Source of the DNA: Botryllus schlosseri
Lineage: Eukaryota
Assembly (NCBI GenBank): GCA_051294905.1
Contig: CM119372.1
Coordinates: 30,506,001-30,566,000, forward strand
DNA length: 60,000 bases
Reading direction: 5' to 3'
Position numbers and translations under genes: made by a program. This document shows positions 1,210-47,290 of the stretch, piece by piece (the first letter of the stretch is position 1; every line of letters starts with the position of its first letter). The notes beneath the pieces were generated by a model, which saw nothing but the letters and a program-made list of their open reading frames with translations, made no database searches and was not told where the DNA came from.

Positions 1210-3570
1210 ATTCGAGCGTATCGGGTCCGTTGGACAGCTTGCGCCACTTGGATATCGCTGAAAATCGGTGTGCTGTTACGTTTAACTACAGGCTATAGGT
1301 ATTTGAAAACCATTCGTTGACACAGGTTATAGTTTGAAAATTTTCGAATATTTTTCGTGCATAAATTTGAATTTTCATGACTGTGCATTCGAGCGTATCG
1401 GGTCCGTTGGACACCTTGCGCCACTTGGATATCGCTGAAAATCGGTGTGCTGCTTGGCGTAACTGTAAGCTATAGATATTTGAAAGTCATTTCTTGACAC
1501 AGGTTATAGTTTGAAAATTTTCTAATATTTTTCGTGAATAAATTTGAATTTTTATCACTGAGCAGACGAACGTATCGGGCCCGCTGGACACCTTGCGCCA
1601 CTTGGATATCGCTGAAAATCGGTGTGCTGTTACGTTTAACTACAGGCTATAGGTATATGAAAACTATTCCTTGACACAGGTTATAGTTTGAAAATTTTCG
1701 AATATTTTTCGTGCATAAATTTGAATTTTTATGACTGTGCATTCGAGCGTATCGGGTCCGTTGGACAGCTTGCGCCACTTGGATATCGCTGAAAATCGGT
1801 GTGCTGTTACGTTTAACTACAGGCTACAGGTATTTGAAAACCATTCCTTGACACAGGGTATAGTTTGGCAAATTTCGAATATTTTTCGTGCATAAATTTG
1901 AATTTTTATGACTGTGCATTCGAGCGTATCGGGTCCGTTGGACACCTTGCGCCACTTGGATATCGCTGAAAATCGGTGTGCTGCTTGGCGTAACTGTAAG
2001 CTATAGATATTTGAAAGTCATTTCTTGACACAGGTTATAGTTTGAAAATTTTCCAATATTTTTCGTGAATAAATTTGAATTTTTATCACTGAGCAGACGA
2101 ACGTATCGGGCCCGCTGGACACCTTGCGCCACTTGGATATCGCTGAAAATCGGTGTGCTGTTACGTTCAACAACAGGCTATAGGTATATGAAAACTATTC
2201 CTTGACACAGGTTATAGTTTGAAAATTTTCGAATATTTTTCGTGCATAAATTTGAATTTTCATGACTGTGCATTCGAGCGTATCGGGTCCGTTGGACACC
2301 TTGCGCCACTTGGATATCGCTGAAAATCGGTGTGCTGTTACGTTTAACTACAGGCTATAGGTATTTGAAAACCATTCCTTGACACAGGGTATAGTTTGGC
2401 AAATTTCGAATATTTTTCGTGCATAAATTTGAATTTTTATGACTGTGCATTCGAGCGTATCGGGTCCGTTGGACACCTTGCGCCACTTGGATATCGCTGA
2501 AAATCGGTGTGCTGCTTGGCGTAACTGTAAGCTATAGATATTTGAAAGTCATTTCTTGACACAGGTTATAGTTTGAAAATTTTCTAATATTTTTCGTGAA
2601 TAAATTTGAATTTTTATCACTGAGCAGACGAACGTATCGGGCCCGCTGGACACCTTGCGCCACTTGAATATCGCTGAAAATCGGTGTGCTGTTACGTTTA
2701 ACTACAGGCTATAGGTATATGAAAACTATTCCTTGACACAGGTTATAGTTTGAAAATTTTCGAATATTTTTCGTGCATAAATTTGAATTTTTATGACTGT
2801 GCATTCGAGCGTATCGGGTCCGTTGGACAGCTTGCGCCACTTGGATATCGCTGAAAATCGGTGTGCTGTTACGTTTAACTACAGGCTATAGGTATTTGAA
2901 AACCATTCCTTGACACAGGGTATAGTTTGGCAAATTTCGAATATTTTTCGTGCATAAATTTGAATTTTTATGACTGTGCATTCGAGCGTATCGGGTCCGT
3001 TGGACACCTTGCGCCACTTGGATATCGCTGAAAATCGGTGTGCTGCTTGGCGTAACTGTAAGCTATAGATATTTGAAAGTCATTTCTTGACACAGGTTAT
3101 AGTTTGAAAATTTTCTAATATTTTTCGTGAATAAATTTGAATTTTTATCACTGAGCAGACGAACGTATCGGGCCCGCTGGACACCTTGCGCCACTTGGAT
3201 ATCGCTGAAAATCGGTGTGCTGTTACGTTTAACTACAGGCTATAGGTATATGAAAACTATTCCTTGACACAGGTTATAGTTTGAAAATTTTCGAATATTT
3301 TTCGTGCATAAATTTGAATTTTTATGACTGTGCATTCGAGCGTATCGGGTCCGTTGGACAGCTTGCGCCACTTGGATATCGCTGAAAATCGGTGTGCTGT
3401 TACGTTTAACTACAGGCTATAGGTATTTGAAAACCATTCCTTGACACAGGGTATAGTTTGGCAAATTTCGAATATTTTTCGTGCATAAATTTGAATTTTC
3501 ATGACTGTGCATTCGAGCGTATCGGGTCCGTTGGACACCTTGCGCCACTTGGATATCGCTGAAAATTGGT
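1210..3570. repeat. 177-bp tandem satellite, about 13 monomers, with a 3-monomer (531-bp) higher-order repeat
   Basis: GATATCGCTGAAAATCGG recurs every 177 bp (1251, 1428, ...). The variant monomer TGCTTGGCGTAACTGTAAG occurs at 1451, 1982, 2513 and 3044, exactly 531 bp apart. Confidence 0.95.
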
Positions 3571-4667
3571 GTCGAATATTTTTCGTGATAAATTTGAATG
3601 CGCCACTTGGAGATAGTTGACAATTTGTGTGGTGTCAGATTTGCCTGCAAACTATACATATGTGAACGCCATTCATTGCCACAGTCTCTAGTTTGGAGAA
3701 GATGGACTCGATTCTAAGTTTAGTGACTGTTTAGTTGAGCGTATCATATAGTTTAGAGACATTTGAGGTACGGCGTTTAGCGTGTCGGAGCAATATTTGT
3801 TTTGTCAAATCCAGATTTTGTGTGCTAAAACTACATTTTGCGAAATTTCGTTTGCAGCAGAGCGATACCTTGCAGCTGTGAAAATTTCATGATGGAGATA
3901 GTCATTCGCGAGATAGCTGTGTTGAGTTAACAGTGTTGAGGTGCTAGTCGAGCTTATATTCTTTATTAGTTGTTTCACAAATGACGTGATGCGATAAAAT
4001 CAGTCGAGTATTTATACGCTTTATTGATTTGAAGGCAATTTAATGAGTATTTCACCGTAACCTACGTCGAAACATCGTGTGTGGCCGATGGCTGCCCCGC
4101 GGCATGGCCGGAAACTTGATCCTGGTGATATATCCGATACCTGCGGTATTCTACACAGTAGTTCTGATATTTATTTTTGATGGCTAGAATTTGATGGCTA
4201 ACTTCGTCCCGGTCACTGGAATCTGTATGCGTACGCGGGCTGACTTCTGCTTTATCTTGCTTTTGTCGGCAATTAAACTAGCAGTGAATAAAGGTCTGCA
4301 ATAGTGCATAGTCATAACCGAAATTGACGCGGAAACATTTTATCACATCCTTTGATAATCTGCAATTTTGAAGTTGTTATTGATGTTGTTTGTAATGACT
4401 TTGAAAGTATAGTCAATAGTCATTGATGTGTTAAGTAACTCAAAAACCAATCCAAATTATAAGCGTGCTCATCACATGGTATATAATGTATTGATAAGAT
4501 GAGCATGTATCAGCAATTAAGTAAACTGGTTTAGTGGTTTGCACAACGCATCAATTTGATATACTCTGGGATTGCATCTCAGACTAGGACAGGTCATGAT
4601 TGGGTTTCGTTGGGAGCACAGTTGTTGATCACGTGAAACAGCAATCGTTGGGCATGCTCATGGGGAC

Positions 4668-9642: not shown

Positions 9643-9995
9643 TGCCGGCCATCCGGCAGTCGACGAGCATGTCCACATTCAAGTCGAAATACAAGCAATT
9701 ACTACTAAATAAATACAGTCCATCCTCAAGATTACCGGACCACGACTGACCTATCGATCTCGCTTCCCATGACATGCCGCCCTATTTCTTGTCGCTTCCT
9801 TTTTCTACACTATCTTTCTTACTTTCATTCAGTGTGCATGCCTCCTCTTTACATCGCCTAGGCCAAGGTGGGAGTTTGATTCCATAGACAACTCCTAGTC
9901 GCTTCGACATCTTCCTTTCTTTTCATTGTATCGCATTTTTTGTGGCGTATTGAACTGATAAAATTGCTAATAAACCAATGATGATGATGATGATG
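9643..9995 (+). mobile_element. 5'-truncated LINE 3' end (CR1/L2 clade) with a (GAT)n tail
   Basis: Encodes an ORF2 C-terminus (PAIRQSTSMSTFKSKYKQLLLNK) and ends AATAAACC...(TGA)n. Homologous to 47810-50432. Confidence 0.8.
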
Positions 9996-12900
9996 CTCGC
10001 GATTACTATATGACTCATCATATCTATCACCCATGAATTATTAGCGGGCATGCAAAAAAAGCCGAAAAAGGTTTACGTATAGACTAGAGCAGTGCTCTTC
10101 AACCTTTTTCGACGTGGTACACCCTTTTAACGTTTGCTCAAAACTCGTACACCCCTGTTCATTAGGGGTCTTCAAAAATGACTATTTTTCTCAAATCGTA
10201 CTGGCTACTTGATAAAATTGTTAGGCTACCTAACTTAAGCCTACACACCAAATTTGGTTCAATTCCAACTAGTAGTATAGTAGATCGGTCGTGACGGGCT
10301 ATGGGGCTCTTATGGGCGGGGTCGCATGCTAACGCGAAACCGGGGGTGGCATGCTAACGTTTTCGTCTTATGGCGGGGGTGGCATGCTAACGTTTTCGTC
10401 TTATGGCGGGGGTGACATGCTAACGTTTTCGTCTTATGGGTGCGGTCGCATGATAACGCGAAACTCGTGGTGGCATGCTAATGTTTTTAGGTATACGTGC
10501 GGCGACATGCTAACGACGATAAATGTGTCTGTCATGTATTCTTACGGGATCTGTGGCGACTCGCCATGTGTTCTTGCGGTCGTGATTCGTACTTTCAGGC
10601 ATCTCTCGCGCGGTGTTGAATATGTACGAGTCACCAACAATAACCGCGCGGACGGAAACGTGGTTTGTTGTGAGGATTAAGCAGTGCGTGCGACCTATAT
10701 TTCGAATGACCTGTGCGCTGAATTGTTTCACGGCCAACCGCGGTGATCGCGACTCGCCTTTTTTACTATAGGTGGTGACGGTGATTCGCCTGTCGTGTAT
10801 TCTTACGGGGTCTGTGGTGACTCGCCATGTGTTCTTATGGGTGCGGTCGCATGCGGCTATTGCGGGGGTGGTGAGCGGCTATTGATGCTAACACGAAACC
10901 CGGGGTGGCGAGCGGCACTTATTTCTTATGGCGGCGGGTCTTATTTCTTATGGGTGCGGTCGTGATTCGTACTTTCGGTATAGACTGCGGGCGGCATGTC
11001 GTACTTTCAGCAAAAAAGGTGTGAAATAGTTTGCCAAGTCTAGGAATCACTTGCAAGGTAATATTTTGGTATTTAGTTTACCACAGAGCCGGCGTAGACG
11101 GTGATTCGAATATCAACAATAACAACGCTCACGAATTAACACTTCAAATAGCTGTGAAATAGTTTGCAAAACCCCGCGATCGCTGACAAGATAATGTCTC
11201 GGTCATAACCATCTTTCACGACTTGGTGTCATAACCATACCGATCGCTCACGCGGTGAAATTTTAGTAATCAGTTTGTCACAGTACTTGATATCGCTGGT
11301 AAGATTTAACAAGTAACGAATAACAGACCGCGGTAACTTGAATAGCGACAAATTGTCACTTATTTCCGCTCTAACTCTAATCCTTTGTGAAGTGAACGCT
11401 TATTCAAAAGGGTGTGATATAATTTTAAAATCCAACGACCACTCACCGGATAATACTTCAGACATAGCAATTCCTCATACCCGCCTACAAGGTAATATTT
11501 CGGTAATTAGTTTGTCACAGAACCGTCGCAGGCGGTGATTGGAAAACCGACAATTTGTCACTCGCCCGCGATCGCTATATGTTTCACGCCTCCAGAATAG
11601 TGGCTGACTTTAGTTGCGTGATAAGATCCATGAAAATATTCAATCAATGTGTTAGTTTATCAACTTGAAATGAAACTCACTACACAAATCAAGTCGATTC
11701 GTATCTGAATGTTTTAAATCGGTACAACTTTAATCCTTTGACAAATCCCTTACCGCGTTTTTGTTGAATCGAACGTAACCCGAATATTACTGACGCCGAC
11801 TTTCAGCCGCATCGAATTATTCGCACATTCCGCACCACTGTTTTCACACTTATAGAATCAATACCAACTATAACTCTACAAGAATCAAGAATCACAAGTA
11901 TGTGCATTACACAGTTATTGTCTTTATTAACTTGAAATCAAACACTTAACAAAAACACACAACTAATCATTTGGCAACTGTGGCATTACCAAAAAATTCC
12001 AGTATTGTTGATTGAAAATCCTTGAGTCATTATTATCAAAAATGTTATAGTACCGCATCGGAGTCCATTCGCGGGATGTACTAAAGTTAAATCCAGATAA
12101 TCCAAAATGAAATATTTGGACTTTGACATAGTCTGAATTGAAATATATTGACAAACATGACTACCAACTTTGATCCAGTCACATTTCAAGATCATACTTT
12201 GAAACAATCGTTGAAACTTACAACTCTATTCACGACTGAGTTTTCCGTTTATCAAATAGAGTTTCAGTAAATACTATCGCGATATTTTAATGTGTTACTA
12301 CACACAATAGAATCAATCAACGAAATAGCACCTGTTGTAAATATTTCTAACTTGACAACCACTTGTGCGTACCGCGATCGACTTGCGACGCGATGAGTTA
12401 AATCGGAATATTTCAATCTATTTGTCGAAACCTTGAACAAACTATCAGGTTATTTTTTGTTGTAATCGAGTGAACGGAAATAGTATTACGTCTCAACATT
12501 TTAGCATCTTCCCATAAACAAAAGAGTAAAATACAAAAAACCTTGTCAAGTCAATCCGTTTGTAACTTACCCAACCAAAGCAAAAAGTATCCTTATGAAA
12601 AGTAGACAAGACTACGCCAGTAATCACTACAATCCAAAATCCATAACAAGCTCGGTTGTATTCATATCCCTACGACGCGTCTTTTGTTTTTCAACTGTAA
12701 AAGTCGTTACTATTTTGCAAGACAAAGTAATTACTACTTGATATATTTTATAAACCAAAGTAAATACTACTCGGTGTGTGGTTTGAGATTAACATATTAC
12801 ATTTGAGTATACCGGATTTGAATGCCTGACCAACGTAGTTGAGAATTCATTTCTTACAATCAAACGCCGGTTTTACATTGAAAGGTATCATACTGTAAAC

Positions 12901-15089
12901 ATAAGGATTGACACATTGATTTGATATATGAGATTTTGTAATGCTCGACCACGACTTGATTATTAAATTATTCACGATAATTAGACCCGATGTTGTGGTA
13001 AAGGTTATTAGAAAATATCACTTTTGGCATCGAGTACCAGTCGAAGTGGGTGAACAATAACACCGAAAATGATAAATGCGTTTCGTGCTACTATTGATAC
13101 AAGTTCATTTCTATCAGGTGAAATAAACGCCATCACAAAACTCAGAGCATGCAAAGGTCTTGATTGGTATGAATTTCGATTTGTGTCTTATGATTTTAGA
13201 AATATTATGATTCGTTAAACCAAAGTCGTATGTCCGATTATTAATTGATTGGAAACTTGATCACGTACCTCGATCATTACAGAAGATTATAACCCCATTG
13301 TCCGACAATATTTTACAAAAGGATCGAAACCAAGTAACCCAAAGTCGTTGCCGTCGCATAAACAATTTGTACGACGTTTGATAATTGTACCCTATACGTT
13401 GGTGTACTAGAGATATTTGTAAAACACACTCTGGTAAAGAAATCGAAAAGATATCCTACACCTAAATCTGATAAAACCATTTTGCACTTTTTGTTCGTCA
13501 GTAGTATCCATTTTAATTTTCCCATTTCCTCTCGTCAAAGTAGATGTAATCATAGTCACTAAAGAACTTACTTGGATGTGTTTGAATTCTAGACATAGTT
13601 ATGATTTACTCAACGCAAGACCCAAGAACAACCGTAGTTAACAACCGTGCACACATATCCAAAATATCGCACACTCCGCTATTCCTAAAGTACAAACACC
13701 CGATACAAAATATCACTTGTTGCGGCATCATCTTCACAATATCACCATTTTGTTTGTGTCAATTAGTTACTTTGTATGTTATCCCACAACTCTTACAAAA
13801 GTACGAAGGATATTAACATCGCACTAAGTAATTAACTTTACTCGATATTCTCGCATTACGAAACTAAAGAATGGTTGGTTAGACTCTACAAACTGTTTCG
13901 ATATCACAAGACCTTTATTGTCTGAATGGGTGTTCATGTATCTTAATAATCAAATAGTTCAACACAGAACTAGCACTAACAGAAACATCAGAGTTGTTTA
14001 CACAAAAGTTTGTATGTGTACAGTATGCGAATACCATGTGTAAGTCCAGCACAATTGCAGTATCCATTCGAGTTTAGTCAACACAAATTTATTACAACGG
14101 AGCCACGTAAACTTTCGGGAAAGAAAAGCATACTCACTTCCAGAGGGTTATGTCAACACCATAGCAGTTCCCCAACAACAAAGTACATATGTTTCTAGCC
14201 ACGGTCCTTACATCTTTCACATAGATCAATCTACTTTGCTAACGAAAAGTGCTGAGTCATCACATGATCGCTCTCACAACAAAACAGCTAGTAGATATTA
14301 TCATTCAAAATACTCCTAACCCTTTACACACCAGTGACAAATCATACAACGAATATGCTTTGCGGGTCGAATTGTTGTTCAGTGTCAAGTCTACCTGTTG
14401 AAACGTACATTAAACAGCGCAATCCAATTAAAACCACGAATCTATTTTCATTTCGTCACATACAGAAAAATAAATTTTCTTTCTCCAACACATACTTGTA
14501 ACCAATCGCTTTCATTAAACACACAACACCATAAAAGTATTTACTTTCTACAACATAGACATTCCGATGTAGTCAAGAAATATTTTTATTAATCAAAATC
14601 ATCGATTTCTGATCACGGCGTTAGTGTGTGCATGTCATACCTGTGGGCCCCGTATTAAAATGGACACGACACGACTGACTGTAAGGAGATAGAAGTCTAT
14701 CACATCGATTTACATGTGGTCTTCGCTACGGTTTCAAAAAACGAATCATCTCTTTTGCATTGATCTAGACCGAGCAAGTTAGTTAATGGCCATGATTGTG
14801 TTTGTCATATGCGAATGATAGGGTTACTGTCAAATCTACATACAACAATCTTCTGACGATCATAATAGCAATTTCATTTTCCGCCCCTTCATAATTGTAC
14901 AACTCGGTAACTACGTTTAACAAGACCAATCACACTACCGGCGTTGAACACAAGATACCTACCCAAGTAAAAATATCATTCTGGTTTCGACAACTGACGT
15001 TTACCTGTGTAAAATTATCATTTTCACTTGGAGGTCCACCATTACCTAACTAAAATACCATTGTCCTTTGGAGATTTATCGTCTACCCA

Positions 15090-15680
15090 GTGTAACAATC
15101 CCCTTTTCACTTGGAAATCTATTTTTGGCCTGAATAACAATCCCCTTTTCACTTGGAAATCTATTTTTGGCCTGAATAACAAACATCTTTTCACTTGGAA
15201 ATATATTTTTTCTCTTGGTAACAAACCTTTTTCACTTATAAATATATTTTTTCTCTTGGTAATAAACCTTTTTCACTTGGAAATATATTTTTTCTCTGAG
15301 TAACAAACCTTTTTCACTTGGAAATATATTTTTTCTCTTGGTAATAAACCTTTTTCACTTGGAAATATATTTTTTCTCTGAGTAACAAACCTTTTTCACT
15401 TGAGAATATATTTTTTCTCTGGTTAACAAACCTTTTTCACTTGGAAATATATTTTTTCTCTGGGTAACAAACCTTTTTCACTTGGAAATATATTTTTTCC
15501 CCGGGTAACAAACCTTTTTCCCTGAGCAACAAACCTTTTTCACTTGCAAATATATTTTTTCCTGGGTAACAAACCTTTTTCACTTGGAAATATATTTTTT
15601 CCCCCAGGTAACAAACCTTTTTCACTTGGAAATATATTTTTCCCTGGGTAACAAACCTTTTTCGCTTGGTGATCCGTCGT
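15090..15680. repeat. ~41-bp minisatellite in the left arm (AACAAACCTTTTTCACTTGGAAATATATTTTTTCTCTGGGT)
   Basis: Unit starts at 15301, 15342, 15383, 15424 and onward. Confidence 0.9.
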
Positions 15681-18299
15681 TTACCTGAGTAAAAATATCA
15701 TTTTCCTTTGGGGATCTGGCGTTTACCCAGTGTAACAATACATTTTCTCTTGGTCATCTAGCTTTTCCTAGAGTAACAAAACCATTTTCATTTTGAAATC
15801 TGACAACCACACCGACAATTTGATATTTTTGTATTTTCTTACAGCGAACAGCGACAAAATATACACCAACAACGACTCCGATACATTTGTCTAATCAAAT
15901 ATTCACTTGTGTTGGTGCATCCCATCAAAATCGTCGGTTACCCACATGCAATGCGCTCTTGTACACAGAAATGCATGTTTTGGAAAATTGGACAATAGGC
16001 TTCGATAGTTCTGTGATGTCCGGGTTCGTGCTTTGGATTTTCCAGAGTCAAAATGTCTGAATAAAACACCTCCTTGACGATGGTTGGTATGTGGATAACG
16101 GTGTTCGGAAAACGGTTGGATTTATGTCACCCATCGCGATAACAATTCCAGGTCGAGTTTTCCCCCGCGCGTTTACTATATTGTGTCTTTATTGGTCAAT
16201 GTATGTCTCGACATTCAGTTTGAAATCGGAAACCCTCATAAGTATGTAACCCGATCCGGATATCAACTCTGAATCGATAAACCAATGAACAATATTCAAA
16301 GTAAACATGTTACACCCTGTGTTCCCACGAAAAAATACCATCCAGACATACGTCGCGCTTGTTTGCCCACATCAGTATACGCGTAAATGGAGGTGTGTGA
16401 CATTGCATGCAATGTGTTGGTATACAAACATCGATCCACAGACATTATCATAGCCGGTAGTTTTGATGTAGATCGAATGTCATCACACCCGATAACAATG
16501 TCATACCAATAAGCCACATTGCAATGACTCTGAGTCCGCGCTATTACATCGATATTTCGACACCGTTTACTGATTTACTCGATGGTGTTATCGTGTTGTA
16601 ACATTACAAGCTAGTCGTGGCCCTATCTCCGGACAGACCACCCAGACCAATTGGATACATCGATCAATGTGTTGTCCACACCGAAGTTTTCTGCTGTAGC
16701 GTTTGACCATGGTGAACTATCGAAGTGGTGCTCGAAATGATTGCGATCAGTCTTTCAGTCACGATGCATGGATGTCGCTACTCCCACATAACGACTCCAG
16801 ACAAATATCGTGAACAGTGATTATGCAAATCTCGGACTGATACTGTGATCCAATAAGGTGTGTTTCTGTGGAATGAAGACTGCAATCGTACACCACAATA
16901 TAACACTACCTCGCGATTTCACACGCAATCATAAAACACATCATCGTAAGGATTCAGTTCGTCCGGTGACATTTCGAAACGGTCATCGCCACAAGAGATC
17001 GGTATCATTTTGAAAAGACATCGTCACAAGGCTATTGACGTCGATTCTGTTGGTCATGTCAATCCGTTTCACAATCCGCCGTTTTTCAACTCCCCGCACC
17101 ATAGTGTTACGACACAGACAAGAAGCGTCGGTGGAAATAATAAAACACGGAAAGCACACTTTGGTGTTATTTGACATGGATTTTACACCCGACGAACCTT
17201 ACATTCGAGCGATGCATTGGAATGACGCTTGTATTATTGACGTAGAAGGAACAGAAATGTATCGATTTATTGGTTTCGTACATATCCAACAAAAACCAGG
17301 GTATGTGATTGTGCGTGGTTCGCATATTCGACTGTGAACGCTCTATTGGTATATGCTGTATAGTTCACTTTCACCGTCGTGCGAATAACCCATGTTACGG
17401 TTCGATGTTTGTGTGTCTGTATGTCACGCTTCAGATTGACTCAGAGTCATTGCAATGTGGCTTATTGGTATGACATTGTTATCGGGTGTGATGACATTCG
17501 ATCTACATCAAAACTACCGGCTATGATAATGTCTGTGGATCGATGTTTGTATACCAACACATTGCATGCAATGTCACACACCTCTATTTACGCGTATACT
17601 GATGTGGGCAAACAAGCGCGACATATGTCTGGATGGTATTTTTTCGTGGAATGTAACATGTTTACTTTGAATATTGTTCATTGGTTTATCGATTCAGAGT
17701 TGATATCCGGATCCGGTTACATACTTTATCAGGGTTTCCGATTTCAAACTGAATGTCGAGACATACATGACCAATAAAGACACAATATAGTAAACATGCG
17801 GGGGAAAACTCGACCTGGAATTGTTATCGCGATGGGTGACATAAATCCAACCGTTTTCCGAACACCGTTATCCACATACCAACCATCGTCAAGGAGGTGT
17901 TTTATTCAGACATTTTGACTCTGGAAAATCCAAAGCACGAACCCGGACATCACAGAACTATCGAAGCCTATTGTCCAATTTTCCAAAAAACATAAACGTC
18001 GATGTACAACAGCACATTGCATGTGGGTAACCGATGATTTTGATGGGTTGCATCAGCACAAGTGAATATGCGATTACACAAATGTATTGGAGTTGTTGTT
18101 GGTGTATATTTTGTCGCTATCCGTTGTAACAATATACAAAAATATCAAATTGTCAGGTGTGTTTGTCAGATTTCAAAATGAAAATGGTTTTGTTACTCTA
18201 GGAAAAGCTAGATGACCAAGAGAAAATGTATTGTTACACTGGGTAAACGCCAGATGCCCCAAAGGAAAATGATATTTTTACTCAGATAAACCACGGACC

Positions 18300-18720
18300 A
18301 CCAAGTGAAAAAGGTTTGTAACCCAGGGAAAAATATATTTCCAAGCGAAAAAGGTTTGTTACCTGGGGAAAAAATATATTTCCAAGTAAAAAAGGTTTGT
18401 TACCCAGGGAAAAAATAGATTTCCAAGTGAAAAAAGGTTTCTTACTCTGGGAAAAAATAGATTTCCAAGTGAAAAAAGGTTTCTTACTCTGGGAAAAAAT
18501 AGATTTCCAAGTGAAAATGATATGTTTAGCCAGGTAAACGACGGACTGCCAAGTGAAAACGGTATTGGTACTCAGGTAAATGATAGTTTTCCAAACGAAA
18601 AGGGTTTGTTACCCAGGGAGAAAATATATTTTCAAAAGAAAATGATTAGTTACTCTAGGTAAAAGTATTTTTTCAAGTGAAAATAGTTTTTTGCTGTAGG
18701 AAAAAAATAGATTTGTAAAC
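18300..18720. repeat. Inverted counterpart of the ~40-bp minisatellite in the right arm
   Basis: AAGGTTTGTTACCCAGGGAAAAAATATATTTCCAAGTG-like units; fewer and more divergent than in the left arm. Confidence 0.88.
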
Positions 18721-21700
18721 GACAAGGGTTTGTTACTCTAGGAAAGGATAGATCGCCAAGCGAAAATGATAATTTTACACAGGTAAACGTCAGTTGTCCA
18801 AACCAGTATGATATTTTTGACTTGGGTAGGTATCCTGTGTTCAACGCTGGTAGTGTGATTGGTCTTGTTAAACGTAGTTGCCGAGTTGTACAATATACTT
18901 TTCGTGTGTATACAATTACGAAGGGGCGGAAAATGAAATTGCTATTATGATCGCCAGAAGATTGTTGTATGTTGATTTGATTTGTCGGAGTAGCAAACCT
19001 AACATTCGCATATGACAAGCAAAATCATTACCGTGAATACATGTAACTGGCTCACTCGGTCTCGACCAATGCAAAATAGATGATTCGTTTTTTGAAACCG
19101 TAGCGAAGACCACATGTAAATCGATGCGATAGACTTCTATCCCTTACATTCAGTCGTGTCGTGTCCATTTTAATACGGGGGCCCACAGGTATGACATGCA
19201 CACACTAACACCGTGGACAGAAATCGACGATTTTGATTAATAAAAATATTTCTTGACTACATCGGAATGTCTATGTTGTAGAAAGTAAATACTTTTATGG
19301 TGTTGTGTGTTTAATGTAAAGCGATTGGTTACAAGTATGTGTTGGGGAAAGAAAATTTATTTTTCTATATGTGACGAAATGAAAATAGATTCGTGGTTTT
19401 AATTGAATTGTGACTGTGTTGTTTTAATGTACGTTTCAACAGGTAGACTTGACACTGAACAACAATTCGACTCACAAAAAATGTTTGTTGTATGATTTGT
19501 CACTGGTGCGCAAAGGGTTAGGAATATTTTTGATTTACTGCTATGGCATTGACATAACCCTCTGAAAGTGAGTATGCTTTTCTTTCACGAAAGTTTACGT
19601 GGCTCCGTTGTAATAAATTTGTGTTAACTAAACTCGGATGGATACCACAATTGTGCTGGACTTACACATGGTATTCGCATACTGTACACATACAAACTTT
19701 TGTGTAAACAACTCTGATGTTTCTGTTCGTACTAGTTCTGTATTGAACTATTTGATTATTAAGATACATGAACAATCATTCAGCCAATAAAGTTCTTGTG
19801 ACATCGAAACAGTTTGAAAGCGGTGCCAATCATTGTACAGGTTTGTAGCATGGGAATATTTTTGTGTGTCGTGAATATCTTTCGTATACACTTAGTATGA
19901 AATGAGATAATAAGTAGTGTCTTACAAAAGTAAAACATGTTGTGTTTGATTGCAGACTTTTTATCGTTGTTCGTTGTGGTTTTGAAAGATGGATGAGTTT
20001 ACATTTAAATATAGTAAGCAGAACAACTCAAGTAATAAATTTTACTCGTTTGAAAATACCGATCAATGGAGTAGCAATATCAATATGGGTGGTATATTAT
20101 TTTTCGCGATATGCACCAACCATCTAAGTATAACTTTTCAAAAATTTATCATGTCATAGAAAAGTTGGTTTTTATGAAATCGAAACAAATATACTTCGAT
20201 TATCACGACAAAGGAATTGAGATCAACGCAGTATTTCGAAATGGTATGTTCTGCAATCGCTAAATATCAAACTGTGCATACAACTCGGTTAGGTAAACGA
20301 CCCAGTTACAAGTCGGATGTATTCTTGGTGTACAGATGGCAGTCTGATGATGTAAAGCTCAACCACTCTAGCGATTCGAAACAATTGTGCTTCGATTATT
20401 ATGATGATGGAAATTACGATCAACGGAGTATTTCGAAGTGACTGTGTATCGTTCGGTATGTTCACCAATCGCTAAATGTCGGTTAATTAAACGATACAAA
20501 TGACAGCTTGATGATGGTAAAGCTCAACCACGCAAATGTGTTCATTGCAAAGTATTTGACACAAACAAAATATCGAATGGAGACCATCACATTGGTTTCA
20601 TTTCGAGTGAGTGAAAATTGTTTTCTGTTGACCAGGTAGGACACATTTGACAAACATCGTGCACATTGTATCTTTGTGATGGTAACGACTTTCGGCGACT
20701 TAGTTTCATGTCGGGAATTATTATTTGAGGGTTCAAAAAAACAATCAATACTACAAATGAACAACAATGCAAAACACGTTTAGCAAATAACAGTGTGGCA
20801 AGTACTTTTTCGATATTACGAGTGTTGGGCACTAGACACTTCTAGTTGAATTGGATGCATCTAACAAACATGTCCCAATTTACTTTTGTAATGATCAAAG
20901 TCTTGCAACCTCGCGATATTTTACATTTAGCATGTTCTATAGAAAGTGTGAGCGGAGTTGAGTATTAATCGTGTACTTGGCATAGTGCTTTGATATCAAA
21001 GAGATATTTTCACACTGTGTAATGTTTCAATTCTCTGTTGCGAATTCCGACAGTAACGACATTGATGTTAAATCCTCGCCCGTGGTTATTGTAAGTGAAT
21101 CCTAAACATCGCAACAGTCGGTATGGAAATCGAACGCATGCATACTTTTAGATAGGTGACACTAACAAGTTTATTACATCCGTGAAATACTCTGAAACGT
21201 CGATTCGTGATTGTGTTAGCTATATTCATCTTCCATATCTGTGGACACAAAGATTTCTTAACTTTGGTTACAGCTCATTCGAAACGAATTGTCGCGTGCA
21301 ATCTAAAAAAAGCACAAGTCGAAGACGAATGATTTGATTTCAATGAACTAAAAAGTCCTTTTGTTTTGATGTTGGATTTAATACAATTTGTATGACTATG
21401 TCGAGTCCGATTCCGAAAGTGAAATGTTACTTTAGTAAAAAAATTCGATGACTCGCATTATGATATTGATAGATGTGTAGAGTAATATGACTAGTTTATA
21501 GAATCTCGGTAATGTTTTTTTTTTGTCATGTCTGTGATCAACAAATATGTGATCAAGTCTTACCATTCGATATTAACTTTCGCAGTCGGTGTAATTTGTT
21601 GAAGTAACAATACCGACGAGTTCAATAATATTCTCCATCGACGCATTCGAATAATCCGTCAGCTGCAAGCGGATTTAAAACTCGATGCCGTTTTGTGGTT

Positions 21701-24700
21701 AACTCAAGTCAGTTGCCGCGTGCGTGTTGATTTCAGGAATGATCATGACTTGTTTCCTGGGTAGATTAGTTATTGTGTTTGTAACTATTACCGTAAAGAG
21801 TTGCTGACATTCCAATATCTTTTACGCTGTCATATACGGATTCAATTGTGCTAATTTAATTCTCAGTTATTGTTCTGGCATTCAAATCTCGTATGCTCAA
21901 AATATAATAGGTTTATGGTCAAGTCGCATATGTACCAATTAGTAAATAGTCTGTCTTACAGAGTAGTATAACGACCTGTATACAGTTGGATAAAAATTAT
22001 CGGTCATATGAATACAACCAGATGAATTAATTCAAGTTTGCTAGTTGTACTGATATAATCAAGTAAGTGAAAACTAGATTTTTAACACTGGTGTTTGTTG
22101 TGAATAATTCTTTTGAGTATGGTAAGATGTTAAAATGTCTCTTTGACAAACGGAAAGCCTGATCGCGAATAGAGTTGTAATGTTTCATTACTTGTTTCAA
22201 GTCAATGTGCGTATAATATCGAAATGGTACTTGGAAAGATGAAAGATGGTAGTCATGTTTGTCAATCCTATTTCAATTCAAACTACACCAAAGTCAAAAT
22301 ATTTCATTTTTGATTATCTCAGTTTACCTGTAGTACATCTGACGAACGGATTTAAAGTTGACAAATTACCAAAATGATTGAATATTATCGGGTTAGAGAT
22401 AGTTGGTATTGATTCTATAATTGTTAAAACAGCGGTGTGGAATGTGTGAATGATTCGGAGTTAGTTGGTCAAGTCAAGTAATATTCAATTTCAAAAGGAT
22501 TATACTCTTAAAAAGATTCGAGTTATACCAACAATTGACAATTTGTGGGTATTCAAGTCGTTGCCGTTGTGGTTCTGTTATTCCTTACCCTTGTGAGTGA
22601 TCGTGGGATTTTACAATTATTTCACACCTATTTGAGTATGCGGTAACCACACAAAGGATTAGGGTTAGGACGGAAATAAGTGACAATTTGTTGCTATTCA
22701 AGTTACCGACACCGGCGGTTCTGTTAGTCGTTACTTATTAAATCTTGCCAGCGAAATCAAGTTCTGTGACAAACTGATTACTAAAATTTCACCGCGTGAG
22801 CGAGCCAACACGAGTTTCCAATACGACATGCGAGAGATACCTATACTTGAAAGTACGACGTGTGAGCGCACCCATAAGAACACATGGCGAATCACCACCA
22901 CAGCCTATACCTGTAACGTTATCATGTCGTCGCGTCCATAAGAATAACGATATATCATTGTCGTCCAAAATATTACTTATGCGTAATTCCTACCTTTGTA
23001 ACACCAAACCACGAGAGATGACTAATGTTTTCAACCGCGGAATACTTGGATAATTTTGGCGATGATAAAAAAGCGAATGATACGATTGTACGTGCTTTTG
23101 TGAAGAGTTTGATTTCAGAGTAATAAACGAATGTGTAAATGTATATACTTGTGATTCTTGTTGCGACTGTGAACAGCAGACTATTCTGTAGGCGCGAAAC
23201 AGCGAATAAGCCGAAAGTATTATTCAGCTAGCAGTCAATAGCGAGGAAAGAGAACACGATCGGTCATTTGACACGACTAAACTACGACATCATATATCAT
23301 AATTTACAATCAAACTATTTCGCACTGACTGGTCTAGTGTAATATTCGATAGTAGCACGCGGTTGGCCGTGAAACAATTCAGCGCGCAGGTCATTCGTAA
23401 TATAGGTCGCACTGCTTAATCCCCTTGCAAGCACGTTTCCGTTTGTGCGGTTATTGTTGGTGACTATTCAACACCGCGCGAGAGATGGTTGAAAGTGCAA
23501 GTACGAATCACGACCCCGAGTTTTCAATACGAGTCGCCGCCCCAGCCTATACCCAAAAGTACGAATCACGACCGCGTCCATAAGAACCCATTACGAATCG
23601 CGGCCCCGAGGGGGTCTGAAAGTACGAGTCGCCACCCCCGGTTTTCAATACGAATCGCCACCCCGCCATAAGCACCCCAGGCACCCCCAGACTATTTCGT
23701 AGGCGCGAAACAGCGAATAAGCCGAAAGTATTATTCAGCTAGCAATCAATAGAGAGGAAAGAGAACACGATCGGTCCTTTGACACGACTAAACTACGATA
23801 TCATATATCATAATTTACGATCAAACTATTTCGCACTGACTGGTCTAGTGTAATATTCGATAGTAGCACACAACTGCACGGAAACAATTCAGCGCGTAGG
23901 TCATTCGGAATATAGGTCGCGCTGCTTAATCCTCACAACAAGCCACGTTTCCGTTTGTGCGATTATTGTTGGTGACTATTCAACACCACGCGAGAGATGC
24001 CTGAAAGTACGAATCACGACCGCACCCATAAGAACACATGGCGCATCACCACATATCTCGTAAGAATACATGGCGCATCACCGTCACCGCCTATAGCAAA
24101 AAAGGCGAGTCACGAACACGAGTTTTCAGGCACATCACCACCGCAGCCTATACCAGAAAGGGTACCATCATCACCGCATCCATAAGAACACATGGCACAT
24201 CACCACCACAAGGGGGGTCAAAATGGGTACCATCATCACCCCGGGTTTTCAGGCACATCACCACCCCGCCATAAGCACCCCATAGCCCGTCACGACCGAT
24301 CTACTATACTACTCCAACTAGTAGCCGCCTTGCTACGGGAGAAGAAAGTTTCTATTTATTATACAAAAATAAATAACGAAAAATTTGAAATTTTTCTGTT
24401 CACCCCATGAAAGTATTACGTTGTCTATAAAAACTATGTTCTTCAAATTTGGTTCAATTCTGACCAGTAGAAGCGTAGTTATTGCCGTCAAAAAATTTGG
24501 ATTTGAATAAAATAGTATTTGGTCACAGAGTCTATTCGCAGCCAGTTAGGCAGCCCGCCACGCGAATTGGAATTTATTTCGTGTCAGAGCAAAAACAGCA
24601 TGACATTACGAACGATAATCAACCTAAATGTAACAGTATTGGGGAGAGAGTAGGTAAAGCTACTGCTGCAGAAGCGGTAATTCAGATCAGCGATGATAGC

Positions 24701-24955: not shown

Positions 24956-25922
24956 CAGTGTTGGGATCAAGTCACTACCTTCGAGTCACGAGTCATTTCG
25001 AGTCATTGCACATTTTGACTCGAGTCAAGTCAAGTCAATCGATTTCCGAAGGTGACTCGAGTCAAGTCAAGTCACTCGATTTTTGGAGGTGACTCGAGTC
25101 AAGTCGAGTCAAGTCAAGTCAAGTCACGAGTCAAGTCACAATTCAAGTCAAATTGCCTTTTCGAGGTATGAGGCGTGATCACGTCATTGTATTTTGCTAG
25201 CTGTCTGAAATACAGATTGAGTGGTCATTAATTTTGAACTGAGGAAGGAATATAGAGTTAAATATACACGCAAGTCAGGCGCTGTATCGCTCACATATAA
25301 GTAGAGCTAATAAACTACGTAAGTAATTGCACAGCCTCAGTTTATAGTAACCAGCCAAAATAGAGAATAGAGAAACAAATTAGTAAGATGCAATGCATTA
25401 CCCTTTTGCAAATTGATATGATACAATTCGAGCCTGCGCCAATGGTTGAGGACTATATAAACTATTTTCGAATTCAATTTCAATAAAACACGCGGTTTGG
25501 TTAACACAGAACAGAAATGGACATTTTGCCATTACTACTTTACTAAAGTCTAGTTTACGACAACGTAGGCTGTAAGCTTCGATCACTTCGTTTGCGATCA
25601 ATATATTTGTGAGAGAGAAATGGAGGCTCAGTAAAACGCACGATCATTGAATGATTGGTCGCTCTCACGGGTTACACCAGCGTTGCGCGAACAATCCGAA
25701 CATATGCCAGATACAGTGATTTTCATCGACACTGATTACTTGATGACTTGAAATTGACTCGTGAATTTTGCTCCGAGTCACGAGTCAATCCACATTTTTG
25801 ATACGCCAAGTCAAGTCAAGTCAAGTCATTTTAGCAAAGTGACTCGAGTCAAGTCAAGTCATTCGAAAAAGTGACTCGAGTCTGACTCGAGTCAAGTCAT
25901 GACTCGAGTCATCCCAACGCTG
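24956..25922. mobile_element. hAT-type MITE with (CAAGT)n/GACTCGAGTC subterminal repeats
   Basis: TIR CAGTGTTGGGAT...ATCCCAACGCTG; TSD CATTTATG at 24948-24955 and 25923-25930. A second copy is at 46387-47290. Confidence 0.92.
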
Positions 25923-28668: not shown

Positions 28669-28792
28669 GTTTAGAACAATGCCGATTTTCAGACTTGAAA
28701 GCTATTTCGGGGTGGTTCCACTGTATCGCATTGTATCGCATTTTTGTGGTGTATTGAACTGATAAAATTGCTAATAAACCAATGATGATGAT

Positions 28793-29065
28793 ACTTTCCT
28801 GGGTGAACAGAAAAATTTCAAATTTTTCGGTATATATTTTATATAATAAATAGAAACTTTCTTCTCCAGTAGCAATGCGGCTACCCGTTGGAATTGAATC
28901 AAATTTGGTGTGTAGGCTTAAGTTAGGTAACCTAACAATTTTATCAAGTAGCCAGTACGATTTGAGAAAAAAGTCATTTTTGAAGACCGCTAATGAACAG
29001 GGGTGTACGAGTTTTGAGCAAACGTTAAAAGGGTGTACCACGTCGAAAAAGGTTGAAGAGCACTG
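28793..29065 (-). mobile_element. Partial, uninterrupted copy of the hAT element that hosts the 14-kb insertion (empty site)
   Basis: The reverse complement reads CAGTGCTCTTCAACC...AATTCCAACGGGTAGCCGC..., collinear with 10090-10270 joined to 24320-24415. Confidence 0.9.
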
Positions 29066-39283: not shown

Positions 39284-40880
39284 AGCAACGCACACGTACG
39301 AATTTAGGAGTCGACGTTGGTCGGGCGCGAACCGCAACCCATTGGTGTTGCAGCTGTCGAACATACCACTGCTTTATCTCACCACACGTTTGGAAATGTA
39401 GGTATCGTAATCTTGAATTACTTTGAGTGTCCGAATCTGGAAAAAGTGCACCGCGACTTTTGTGCATTACACCCTGTTGTTGCCAACCACTTTTGAAGCT
39501 TTTTTTGTCAAAAGACAAGAAATATACTTGCCGCGTTCTAAACACTACATTGATATTTACTTTTAAAGATGATAGAGTTACTTTTACATCGCTTAAGTTC
39601 TTTTGCGTTGCCTCTATTATCCTCTAAATTCCATGCAAATGTATTTTGAGTTTCTTCCATAATCGTTCCCTTCGCGTAGCGTTAATGGTGTATTCGATAC
39701 AATTTCGCCGTATCGCTCATCGCCTTGACTACGGACCTTAATACGGGGAGGGGACTATGCCAGGACAATTTCTGAAAGGGATATTTTCGTCTGCTTGTGT
39801 AACCGCACAATGCGCTAATGTAATATCCGATACAACTTCGCCGTATCGCTCATCGCCTTGACTACGGCCCTTACTAATACGGGTAACGGCGGCATAGGCC
39901 TACCGGAAATGTTTCTGAAAGGTGGGACCGGGCATGAAAGGTCAAGAACCACTGTTCTATAGTTCAAAATAGCGAGTAACAATATAGCTAGCGTCATGAT
40001 AGCAAGTTATGCGAAATAATCCAAGCTATAGTATATATATACCCATAACATCACATATATATACACAAGCCAACCTGACCCCAACCCTAAATCTGATCCC
40101 TCCCTAACCACACCCTAACCCGATATAACATGGCATTATCCTTATCCGTAATCCAAAACAAGTCGAAGAAGAACTCATACTTTTGAATGTTTTGCTATTA
40201 TAACTCTGACAAATTTCTGCGGATGCCTAAAAAAGTGTGTCCGAATGTCTACTATCGCCAGAAGTGATCAACTTCCGCTGCTAAGGCTTAATGCCCTTGC
40301 ACCAAAGAGCCAATAAATGGCCGTCGATGCTATACGCACAGATGCAGACATGGACCGATAACTACATCAATGTATTTTTTTGTGATTCCGATTGCTTTTG
40401 AAAGGCGATATTACGATTACGATGACATGAAAAACTAACCAAGACAGGATTTTTTCTTCCTTACACTTTGGGCCTTGTGCATGTGCAATGTGCGTGTGCA
40501 ATTGTGCATATACGACATACTGGGAGAAAATATAACAATTGAGATGAGGCTGGATAACGGAAAAACATATCAGCCAATGGTTTTTCCTAAAATTACACTT
40601 GGTGATTGCTGTTGCTCTCTAGGGAAGAAATTAACACCCATCGCTCGTGCACTAATAGGAAAAGTAAATTTACCTCGTGGTGACGCGTGCATTGTGACGC
40701 TTCATTCGCTTGTAATTTGCCGCCTTTATGTTTACCTAGATTGTACATCTTATAGTTGTATGCTACTTATCCAAATATGCCCGTTAAACAACAGCCGTGT
40801 GTGATCGGCGGCGCACACGCCGAGTGAACCACTAAGAAAGTCGGTGGACAACTATGGACGTTGTGTAAACAGGTAGCAAT

Positions 40881-46386: not shown

Positions 46387-47290
46387 CAGTGTTGGGATCA
46401 AGTCACTGCCTTCAAGTCACGAGTCATTTCGAATCATTGCACATTTTGACTCGAGTCAAGTCAAGTCAATCAATTTTCAAAGGTGACTCGAGTCAAGTCG
46501 AGTCAAGTCAAGTCAAGTCAAGTCAAGTCACGAGTCCAGTCAAAATTCAAGTCAAGTTGCCTTTTCGGGGTATAAGACATGATTAATTCATTGCATTTTG
46601 CTAGCTGTCTGAAATACAGGTTGAGTGGTCATTGATTTTGAACCGGACGAATATACCATTAAATAGACACGCCGGAAGGGGCTGTATCGCTCACATATAC
46701 GTAGCACTGCTAAACTGTACATAAAGTAATTGCATAGCCGCAGTTTATATAGTTAGCAGCGAAAATAGAGAATTGAGAAACGAATTGATAAGATGCAATA
46801 CAATAAATATTTACAAATTGATATTATTTAATTCGAGCCTGCGCAAATGGTTGAGGACTATATAAACTATATTCGATTTCAATTTCAATAAAACGAACAG
46901 GTTTGGTTAAGGTAAGAACAGAAATGTCTATTTTGCTATTAAATTACGTACTATACTATTTACGACAACGTAAGCTTTGATCACTTCGTTTGCGGTTGAT
47001 TTATTTGTGAGAGAACAATGAAGGCTCAGTAAACTGGACGATCGCCGATTGATTGGTAGCTCTCACGGGTTACACTAGCGTTTCGCGAACAATCCGAACA
47101 TAAGATACAGTAATTTTTTATCGACAACGATTACTCGTTGACTTGAAACTGACTCAAGAATTTTGCTTCGAGTCACGAGTCAATCCACATTTCTAATATG
47201 CCGAGTCAAGTCAAGTCAAGTCATTTTAGCAAAGTGACTTGAGTCAAGTCAAGTCATACGAAAAACTTGACTCGAGTCATCCCAACACTG
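46387..47290. mobile_element. Second copy of the (CAAGT)n MITE family (24956-25922)
   Basis: TIR CAGTGTTGGGAT / ATCCCAACACTG with a collinear interior; TSD not preserved. Confidence 0.9.

What the first reader, a model, noticed from the sequence alone, without database searches (positions are those of the whole stretch)
10271..24313. 14-kb gene-less element with Polinton/Maverick ends: a candidate new non-autonomous class
Seen: AGTAGT...ACTACT termini, a perfect 36-bp terminal inversion, a perfect 6-bp TSD (CCAACT), and an empty-site copy of the target at ~28880-28895. Established: AG/AGT-repeat termini, long TIRs, 6-bp TSDs and 10-20-kb size are hallmarks of Polintons/Mavericks, which normally encode pPolB, integrase, ATPase, protease and capsids. 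Seen: no long ORF or recognisable Polinton motif inside. Inference: a full-size satellite or defective-interfering genome that keeps only cis ends and roughly genome length, mobilised in trans by a helper Polinton-like virus. Intact ends and TSD suggest it integrated in about this form.
Basis: partly seen in the sequence, partly recalled or inferred. Interest (0 to 1): 0.9.

Follow-up and report, generated by a model that had tools for sequence, protein, structure and literature searches.

The report
Palindromic one-gene satellite of Polinton elements
This 14-kb insertion is a hitch-hiker of the virus-like Polinton (Maverick) elements of the same animal genome: it keeps their ends, has lost all their genes, belongs to a large family built as giant mirror-image repeats around one small gene of its own, and this copy is a rare mosaic whose two halves come from different family branches.

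Summary
Window 10271-24313 (14,043 bp) has AGTAGT...ACTACT ends, a perfect 36-bp terminal inversion and a CCAACT duplication.

- The same ends, each pair with its own 6-bp duplication, bound 15 other copies that I read. Three are 16.0-16.5-kb autonomous Polintons (protein-primed polymerase, rve integrase, packaging ATPase, probable capsid protein).
- The window element shares only its ends with them, so it is non-autonomous and has candidate helpers.

1. The family is built of giant palindromes, with arms of 4.6-6.6 kb (mostly 6.2-6.6) around a centre of about 1 kb. The arms change in lock-step.
2. It is not gene-less. The centre holds a conserved orphan 93-codon frame, with dN/dS of 0.2-0.35 between branches and 149 of 150 scored copies open.
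3. This copy is a mosaic with unlike arms, crossed over at a 41-bp tandem array.

Also, length is not strictly kept (6.2-kb forms exist), and the "empty site" is a paralogue of a high-copy repeat.

Packaging by a helper and transfer between cells are inferred, not shown. This scan had already noted the family on other DNA of this genome. My paper searches found no description of it.

The parts
10265..10270 (.). left target-site duplication CCAACT
10271..10306 (+). left terminal 36 nt, a perfect inverted match with 24278-24313; starts AGTAGT
   Evidence: the 24-nt terminus occurs 420 times in the genome against 0 for the control
10271..10890 (+). left terminal module, the part shared with the inverted repeats of autonomous Polintons (10271-10476 is 93.7% to L011/L012). 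The first 250 nt are 95-96% to the ends of palindromic copies L009/10 and L027/28. It is not of the same type as the body that follows
10341..10458 (+). subterminal 33-bp tandem repeat (3.6 units), also present in helper ends
10890..16536 (+). left arm body, 'type A' (10890-16987 is 98.6% to copy L029/30); non-coding
15092..15789 (+). 41-bp tandem array of the left arm
16537..17437 (+). unique, non-palindromic centre; 40 scored copies in the genome at 93-99%
17056..17337 (+). p93: conserved 93-codon frame plus stop, an orphan protein
17438..17988 (-). inner right arm, still type A (stretches 99% complementary to the left arm)
   Evidence: I2, I3
17990..18300 (.). crossover zone from type A to type B, at the start of the 42-bp tandem array 18174-18766
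18222..23498 (-). right arm body, 'type B' (97.5% to both arms of L033/34)
23028..23120 (+). remnant of the last 31 codons of helper gene orf188 (93.5% aa)
23160..24051 (.). two tandem copies (23160-23498 and 23688-24051) of the inner part of a helper-type terminal repeat
24060..24313 (-). right terminal module with other subterminal repeats than the left end; the best other scored copy is 88% alike
24314..24319 (.). right target-site duplication CCAACT

Best explanation
The element is a non-autonomous satellite of the resident Polinton/Maverick family. It keeps the helper-type termini, which act in cis, and lacks every helper gene. Helper proteins must therefore copy and insert it: the protein-primed polymerase with its priming protein for replication, and the rve integrase for the 6-bp staggered insertion. 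Its family is organised as giant palindromes of two arms (4.6-6.6 kb, mostly 6.2-6.6) around a unique centre of about 1 kb. That centre carries the satellite's one conserved gene, p93, of unknown function. I infer that strand-displacement replication releases single strands that snap back into a long hairpin. Mismatch correction or copy-back synthesis on that hairpin would keep the two arms alike. I also infer that doubling a unit of about 6 kb brings the DNA to 73-96% of helper length (34-pair tally), which favours propagation, possibly through packaging in helper capsids, as with inverted dimers of helper-dependent adenovirus vectors. The window copy is a recombinant. It joins a terminal module of one type, a type-A arm with the centre, a type-B arm joined at the 41-42-bp tandem array, and a second kind of terminal module. 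It integrated in that form with unlike arms.
For: SHOWN. Ends and duplication. Fifteen other copies have the same termini and 15 different 6-bp duplications. Helpers: L011/12, L013/14 and L015/16 (16.0-16.5 kb) have frames of 1,212-1,300 aa with PF03175, a 359-aa rve plus chromo integrase, and a 215-aa ATPase whose relatives carry Pox_A32 and Adeno_IVa2. Their orf432 looks like double-jelly-roll capsid clusters at score 0.98, which is a lead only. 36 polymerase copies were scored at 92-100%. Only the outer 200-650 bp are shared with helpers, at 91-96%, and L015/16 shares its first 70 nt exactly with the palindromic copies L019/20 and L023/24. Palindromes: 9 of 10 palindromic copies read have arm alignments of 4.6-6.6 kb (eight of them 6.2-6.6) at 99.2-100%, and the tenth has a 2-kb deletion in one arm. 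Lock-step: differences fixed in both arms against differences between the arms of one copy are 709:4, 1160:0, 926:27, 815:4 and 1308:3. Recent movement: L019/20 and L023/24 differ at 2 of 4,583 sites yet have different duplications. p93: it is the only frame that stays open and ungapped in divergent copies. Its dN/dS is 0.20-0.35 at 70% nucleotide identity. 149 of 150 scored copies have no stop. It is open in 18 of 21 centres. Mosaic. Length: of 34 adjacent end pairs among the 100 listed exact termini, 21 are 12.0-15.7 kb and 5 are under 8 kb. L057 is a 6,181-bp form holding the arm sequence once, without centre or p93. INFERRED: trans-mobilisation, hairpin-based homogenisation and selection on length. 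The adenovirus parallel rests on passages of PMC4189039: only the terminal repeats and the packaging signal are needed, genomes under about 75% of full length rearrange, and 15-kb vectors are packaged as direct and inverted dimers.
Against: There is no direct evidence for free linear DNA, packaging or helper dependence. Among closely related copies p93 shows dN/dS of 1.04 and is no better conserved than its flanks (97.1% against 96.8-97.1%), so selection is visible only between branches. In the one RNA run laid, of which about 6% was read, depth over the p93 bin was 0 and was 0-2.3 elsewhere in the element. The p93 fold prediction failed (pLDDT 35). One palindromic subfamily (L027/28) has another centre without p93. 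Short forms of 3.3-7.3 kb exist and at least one transposed twice, so near-helper length is not required. The window copy itself has unlike arms, so homogenisation is not obligatory. Polishing of palindromic assemblies could inflate arm identity, although L035/36 (22-24 differences), the one-arm deletion in L029/30 and this window show that the assembly can keep arms apart. Copy numbers are lower bounds or unverified candidate counts.
Confidence: 0.75

Rival explanations
1. A purely chromosomal non-autonomous transposon. The helper integrase, with or without the polymerase, moves it within the genome. It is never packaged, arm identity comes from gene conversion between the long inverted arms on the chromosome, and its length reflects history rather than selection.
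For: Short 3.3-7.3-kb forms with the same ends exist and have moved. There is no evidence of particles or free DNA. Long chromosomal palindromes are known to undergo arm-to-arm conversion (established knowledge, recalled).
Against: Chromosomal conversion acts after insertion. It cannot explain why hundreds to more than a thousand differences between branches are fixed symmetrically in both arms while new copies keep arising, unless active source copies are also converted. The length mode near the helper's (21 of 34 pairs) and a conserved satellite gene are left unexplained.
Confidence: 0.2
2. A decayed ordinary Polinton whose genes have eroded beyond recognition.
For: A 31-aa remnant of helper orf188 lies at 23028-23120. 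The defective copy L021/22 shows that helpers do decay.
Against: There is no other protein or Pfam trace. The interior is shared at 80-99% with many copies of the same gene-free architecture. Near-identical copies at different sites show that it moves in this form.
Confidence: 0.02
3. A foldback transposon of another superfamily with its own transposase, whose ends only resemble Polinton ends.
For: The arms make up about 90% of typical copies and carry internal tandem arrays, as in foldback elements.
Against: The outer 200-650 bp are 91-96% identical to the terminal repeats of elements in the same genome that encode polymerase and integrase, with the same 6-bp duplication. Palindromic copy L009/10 still carries the helper's left-end gene in both arms at 97.6% aa.
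Confidence: 0.02
4. An assembly artefact, such as an inverted duplication created by long-read chimeras.
For: Perfect palindromes are a known artefact class (recalled).
Against: There are many loci with distinct duplications and unique centres. Pieces of the element occur in contigs of independent public runs.
Confidence: 0.01

Closest known systems
Autonomous Polintons/Mavericks (given in a passage of PMC10748475, as 13-25 kb, with 100-1,500-bp terminal inverted repeats and 5-8-bp target duplications, encoding pPolB, integrase, ATPase, protease and capsid proteins)
   Same: 5'-AG...CT-3' termini, a 6-bp duplication and subterminal repeats. The outer 200-650 bp are nearly identical to resident autonomous copies.
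   Different: No polymerase, integrase, ATPase or capsid gene. In typical family members the inverted arms are 4.6-6.6 kb (mostly 6.2-6.6), about four times the stated upper limit. There is one orphan gene that was not found in the helper copies read.
Helper-dependent ('gutless') adenovirus vectors and their inverted dimers (passages of PMC4189039)
   Same: A linear genome, presumably protein-primed, reduced to its ends plus non-coding filler. Small units double, some as inverted dimers, towards helper length. All proteins come from a helper.
   Different: Those are laboratory constructs of a non-integrating virus. Here the thing is a natural, integrating, multi-copy family with a unique centre and its own gene. 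Packaging is not shown.
Foldback transposons (Drosophila FB; Galileo, for which I saw only the search listing and abstract start of PMC3573991)
   Same: Very long inverted arms with internal tandem repeats, and little or no coding capacity.
   Different: The ends and the 6-bp duplication tie this family to an integrase and polymerase helper, not to a cut-and-paste transposase. At 12-14 kb it is far larger.
Copy-back or snap-back defective viral genomes and hairpin derivatives of protein-primed linear plasmids (recalled, not read here)
   Same: One end of a replicon duplicated in inverted orientation, as expected from a polymerase switching strand.
   Different: Those derive directly from helper sequence. 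Here about 5.8 kb of each arm is unrelated to the helper.
Virophages and Polinton-like viruses as parasites of giant viruses (search listings only)
   Same: A smaller element that depends on a larger virus of the same broad realm.
   Different: Those encode their own capsid and replication genes. This satellite would parasitise a Polinton itself and encodes one 93-aa protein.

Membership tests
Polinton/Maverick (autonomous element) | 5'-AG...CT-3' termini with terminal inverted repeats | tested here: met
   AGTAGT...ACTACT with a 36-nt perfect inversion; the family termini are shared with autonomous copies
Polinton/Maverick (autonomous element) | 6-bp target-site duplication | tested here: met
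   (CCAACT); 15 other copies each have their own 6-bp duplication
Polinton/Maverick (autonomous element) | [quoted passage not shown] | tested here: not met
   none in the window element; present in helper copies (PF03175, E 1e-7)
Polinton/Maverick (autonomous element) | encodes a retrovirus-like (rve) integrase | tested here: not met
   none in the window element; helper orf359 has rve (E 2.9e-16) plus chromo
Polinton/Maverick (autonomous element) | packaging ATPase, protease and jelly-roll capsid genes | tested here: not met
   none in the element. The helper has an ATPase and a capsid-like orf432 (a lead only). I did not identify a protease.
Non-autonomous derivative of a DNA element | shares cis-acting ends with a coding element of the same genome, lacks its genes, and has multiple copies at different sites | tested here: met
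Foldback-structured transposon | inverted arms make up most of the element | tested here: inconclusive
   Met in 9 of 10 palindromic family copies read. In the window copy only 13889-16536 against 19816-17438 pair well (84-99%), and the outer arms are of different types.
Foldback-structured transposon | tandem repeats inside the arms | tested here: met
   a 33-bp array, and 41-42-bp arrays in both arms
Defective-interfering genome of the helper | sequence derived from the helper genome by deletion or rearrangement | tested here: not met
   only the ends, a 133-bp stretch next to the right repeat and (in L009/10) one end gene derive from the helper; the arm interior does not
Defective-interfering genome of the helper | interferes with helper replication | not testable with these tools
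   needs co-replication experiments
Virus satellite | carries sequence or genes of its own that are absent from the helper | tested here: met
   p93 has no tblastn or blastp match of note in the helper copies read. A weak BLASTP likeness to the ATPase (25.8 bits) was not upheld by profile comparison (probability 1%).
Virus satellite | is packaged and transmitted with helper-encoded particles | not testable with these tools
   The only indirect hint is the length mode at 73-96% of helper length.

The most novel reading that the evidence does not exclude
A true virus satellite of an animal Polinton virus. In this reading it is a palindromic, hairpin-forming 'gutless' genome, replicated by the helper's protein-primed polymerase and packaged in helper capsids. 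It is sized by inverted doubling and carries one orphan protein (p93) that diverts helper replication or packaging to itself. That would make it a natural counterpart of helper-dependent adenovirus vectors and the first satellite known for this virus group in animals.
Probability: 0.25. Interest if true: 0.85.

Novelty: new variant of a known kind. Interest (0 to 1): 0.66.

Why it matters
Polintons/Mavericks are thought to sit between transposons and viruses, but how they replicate and whether they form particles in animals is largely inferred. This family offers natural evidence on several points.

- **Minimal cis requirements.** It is large, recently active and gene-poor, and it uses the same ends. 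In the window copy the two ends share only 36 nt.
- **Replication mechanism.** Lock-step evolution of the arms (4.6-6.6 kb) is what protein-primed strand displacement with snap-back would predict.
- **Possible length rule.** The length mode is like that of adenovirus packaging.
- **Parasite of a parasite.** The conserved orphan gene suggests an arms race between helper and satellite inside an animal genome.

The window copy, with its unlike arms, shows that such satellites recombine at their tandem arrays and swap terminal modules.

Tried and rejected
- **p93 as a fragment of the packaging ATPase.** BLASTP gave 25.8 bits over 70 aa, aligning a Walker-B-like 'TLVxFDxDF'. Profile-profile comparison with 36 ATPases gave probability 1%. 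Rejected.
- **p93 family or fold.**
  - Pfam found nothing, even at E up to 10.
  - The 5.8-billion-protein search gave 1 hit at 99% identity.
  - The 1.84-billion-representative profile search gave 1 hit, a third intact 91-aa variant.
  - The Atlas gave nothing at 0.9 or above.
  - AlphaFold2 on 6 sequences gave pLDDT 35, so no fold search was run.
- **Host spliced-leader acceptor at the p93 ATG.** There is no AG directly before the ATG.
- **Sequencing runs.**
  - No RNA holder was listed.
  - In the one RNA run laid (about 6% read), depth over p93 was 0. This is no evidence either way.
  - A contig joint that skips 10274-24330 is explained by uninterrupted paralogues of the high-copy flanking repeat, so it does not show insertion polymorphism.
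- **A second copy of the same A/B mosaic.** None was seen among the copies read.
- **Papers.** Kapitonov and Jurka 2006 and Daniell 1976 are not held. Searches gave no description of palindromic or satellite Polinton derivatives. Repbase reports and subscription journals were not covered.
- **Earlier scan notes by sequence (p93).** Nothing was found.
Full report
**1. The observation**

The element runs from 10271 to 24313 (14,043 bp).
- It starts AGTAGTATAGTAGATCGG and ends ...ACTACT. CCAACT lies directly outside both ends, at 10265-10270 and 24314-24319.
- The two ends are identical in inverted orientation for exactly 36 nt and then diverge.
- The longest stop-to-stop frame inside is 137 aa.
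- None of the 109 frames of 50 aa or more reaches a Pfam cut-off.
- This is not chance. The first 24 nt, with up to 2 mismatches, occur 215 times forward and 205 times reverse in the 495-Mb genome. The reversed control gives 0 and 0.

**2. The target and the "empty site"**

The flanks belong to a repeat of about 280 bp.
- 10090-10269 matches 29065-28887 (97.8%) and 24314-24416 matches 28891-28791 (90.3%). In the inverted paralogue the flanks therefore meet with a 5-bp overlap at the target.
- This fixes the insertion boundaries, but it is a paralogue and not an empty allele.
- The repeat has very high copy number in public contigs. This also explains a contig joint that skips 10274-24330.

**3. 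Relatives in the same genome**

The terminal 200 bp gave 63 matches from 40 scored candidates, mostly in inverted pairs 12-16.5 kb apart. I read 15 other copies. Fourteen were fetched as two separate halves; the short form L057 came as one locus.

All 15 have the same kind of termini and their own perfect 6-bp duplication: CTCGAG, ACCGTC, ACCGTA, TTTGTC, CCAATC, AGCGTG, CTCGCG, GGCGAG, GTCATT, GACGTC, CAGAAC, GACGAT, CACGGG, TACGGA and GAGGCT.

*Autonomous copies.* Three copies are autonomous: L011/12 (16,542 bp), L013/14 (15,959 bp) and L015/16 (16,312 bp).
- They carry a 1,212-1,300-aa frame with PF03175 (the organellar and viral B-type polymerase).
- They carry a 359-aa rve integrase with a chromodomain.
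- They carry a 215-aa ATPase whose 407 database relatives often bear Pox_A32 or Adeno_IVa2.
- They carry further frames of 432, 301, 298, 225, 217 and 188 aa. The 432-aa one resembles clusters with a double-jelly-roll-like domain at score 0.98, which is a lead and not a test.
- Their terminal repeats are 439-801 bp.
- 36 polymerase copies were scored at 92-100% identity, out of 383 first-look candidates.

*A defective helper.* L021/22 (14,936 bp) keeps six genes, has a polymerase remnant, and has a 1,231-bp terminal repeat that has absorbed part of orf188.

**4. The palindromic family**

Ten copies (11.7-14.1 kb) have no frame of 150 aa or more, except L009/10.

| Copy | Length of arm alignment | Arm-to-arm differences |
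|---|---|---|
| L009/10 | 6,381 bp | 0 |
| L017/18 | 6,559 bp | 1 |
| L019/20 | 4,583 bp | 0 |
| L023/24 | 6,405 bp | 1 |
| L025/26 | 6,395 bp | 4 plus 1 gap |
| L027/28 | 6,163 bp | 0 plus 1 gap |
| L031/32 | 6,241 bp | 3 |
| L033/34 | 6,478 bp | 2 plus 1 gap |
| L035/36 | 6,397 bp | 22 plus 6 gaps |
| L029/30 | arms differ by a 2-kb deletion in one arm | |

- Between the arms lies a unique centre of 0.8-1.3 kb. The stretch outside the exact arm alignment is larger in L019/20.
- Helpers share only the outer 200-650 bp with these copies, at 91-96%. The first 70 nt of helper L015/16 are identical to those of L019/20 and L023/24.
- L009/10 still carries the helper's left-end gene orf217L, mirrored in both arms at 97.6% aa.
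- The centre probe found 40 scored copies at 93-99%, out of 970 candidates.
- A right-arm probe found hits mostly in inverted pairs.

**5. Lock-step arms**

I aligned both arms of two copies at a time. Differences fixed in both arms of each copy vastly outnumber differences between the arms of one copy:

| Fixed in both arms | Between arms of one copy |
|---|---|
| 709 | 4 |
| 1,160 | 0 |
| 926 | 27 |
| 815 | 4 |
| 1,308 | 3 |

- The highest divergences may include some misaligned columns.
- L019/20 and L023/24 differ at only 2 of 4,583 sites but sit at different loci with different duplications. The family has therefore moved very recently.
- For comparison, the helper terminal repeats differ at 14 of 3,170 sites in total.
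- Caveat: polishing could inflate arm identity. Against that, the assembly does keep unequal arms in L035/36, in L029/30 and in this window.

**6. Not gene-less**

- The frame at 17056-17334 (93 codons, plus strand) is open in 18 of 21 centres read.
- Among these close copies dN/dS is 1.04, and the frame is no better conserved than its flanks. That is what post-insertion decay would give, and it is no support for selection.
- Against divergent branches (L017, L025; 70% nucleotide and 60% amino-acid identity) the alignment is ungapped and stop-free, with dN/dS of 0.20-0.35. The two shifted frames hold 3-5 stops and give ratios of 0.71 and 1.44.
- Of all 67 frames of 60 aa or more in the element that had a hit, it is the only one that stays full-length and open in divergent copies at low identity.
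- 149 of 150 scored genomic copies of the divergent type have no stop, at 89-100% amino-acid identity, out of 1,199 candidates.
- Nine of the ten palindromic copies carry it. One of these has an internal stop, and L027/28 has another centre.
- It is an orphan:
  - There is one 99% hit among 5.8 billion proteins.
  - There is one further intact variant among 1.84 billion representatives.
  - There is no Pfam match, and fold prediction failed.

**7. This copy is a mosaic**

| Window range | Type | Likeness |
|---|---|---|
| 10271 to about 10890 | terminal module | first 250 nt 95-96% to the ends of L009/10 and L027/28 |
| 10890-16987 | type A | 98.6% to L029/30 |
| 17438-17988 | still type A | pairs at 99% with the left arm |
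| 18222-23498 | type B | 97.5% to both arms of L033/34; 99% over the 2-kb probe 20900-22900 |
| 24060-24313 (within the right terminal module, from about 23499) | another terminal module | best other scored copy 88% |

- The switch from type A to type B falls at the start of the 42-bp array at 18174-18766.
- 23027-23498 comes from the right end of a helper, including the last 31 codons of orf188.
- 23160-23498 is repeated at 23688-24051.
- I saw no second copy of this mosaic, but my sample is small.

**8. Length**

Among the 100 listed exact termini I counted 34 adjacent forward/reverse pairs.

| Length class | Pairs |
|---|---|
| 12.0-15.7 kb | 21 |
| 16.3-18.2 kb | 4 |
| over 20 kb (probably nested) | 4 |
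| under 8 kb (3.3, 5.9, 6.18 twice, 7.3) | 5 |

L057 (6,181 bp) has a 608-bp terminal repeat and holds the outer arm sequence once. It has no tandem array, centre or p93. Near-helper length is therefore the mode, not a rule.

**9. Mechanism**

*Shown:* helper-type ends and duplication, loss of all helper genes, recent amplification, lock-step arms, a conserved centre gene, and recombination at the arrays.

*Inferred:*
- Helper polymerase and integrase act in trans.
- Displaced single strands fold into hairpins, where correction or copy-back synthesis makes the arms alike.
- Doubling towards helper length is favoured, possibly by packaging.

The adenovirus parallel rests on passages of PMC4189039. 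Helper-dependent vectors need only the terminal repeats and the packaging signal. Genomes below about 75% of full length rearrange. A 15-kb vector is packaged as direct and inverted dimers.

**10. Comparison and novelty**

- The element fails membership as an autonomous Polinton, because it has no polymerase or integrase.
- It is not a simple defective helper genome, because its arm interior is unrelated to the helper.
- It works like a foldback-shaped, helper-dependent satellite.
- Five literature searches found no such Polinton derivative. A passage of PMC10748475 gives 100-1,500 bp as the usual repeat length.
- The scan itself had noted the family on other DNA of this genome. One of those notes says the host is a sea squirt, which I did not verify.

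**11. Open points**

The one RNA run laid showed almost no reads on the element, which decides nothing. Packaging, free DNA, interference and the function of p93 remain untested.

Noticed in passing
L009:977-1618(-) and L010:5286-5927(+): Palindromic copy L009/10 keeps an intact helper gene (orf217L, 97.6% aa to the autonomous copy) mirrored in both arms. It may be an intermediate between helper ends and gene-free arms.
   Followed up: partly
L021:93-1323 and L022:6275-7505: A defective autonomous copy (14,936 bp) has a 1,231-bp terminal repeat that includes part of orf188. One end seems to have been replaced by a copy of the other.
   Followed up: partly
L057 (G000:C7:13845104-13851284); a second copy of the same length at C11:7551438-7557618: A 6,181-bp short form with the same termini, a 608-bp repeat and the arm sequence once. 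The two copies have identical length, so it has moved at least twice.
   Followed up: partly
G000: C1:32992130-33018942, C7:26020536-26048226, C12:15376876-15404354: Terminus pairs 26.8-27.7 kb apart, about twice the usual length. These may be nested or tandem elements.
   Followed up: no
window 9800-10270 and 24314-24416; 28791-29065: A high-copy repeat of about 280 bp that hosts the insertion. RNA reads cover 9800-10300 at depth of about 35 per strand in run X24.
   Followed up: partly
window 1210-3572: A 177-bp tandem satellite, 13.4 units, 89% matches.
   Followed up: no
window 25016-25151, 25814-25911, 46491-46557, 47209-47279: Recurrent AGTCA-rich 33-37-bp repeats (AGTCAAGTCAAGTCA...GACTCG) at four places. 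They may be ends of another repeat family.
   Followed up: no
window 36026-36754(-), 40869-41942(+), 42612-43859(+): The only open frames of 200 aa or more in the window (243, 358 and 416 aa). Not examined.
   Followed up: no
runs X4, X16 (organism B) and X18 (organism C): Runs under two other organism labels hold 47-58% of the sampled words of the satellite centre, so the family is not confined to one label.
   Followed up: no
L027:6257-6669 and L028:1-380: One palindromic subfamily has a different centre of 793 bp without p93.
   Followed up: partly
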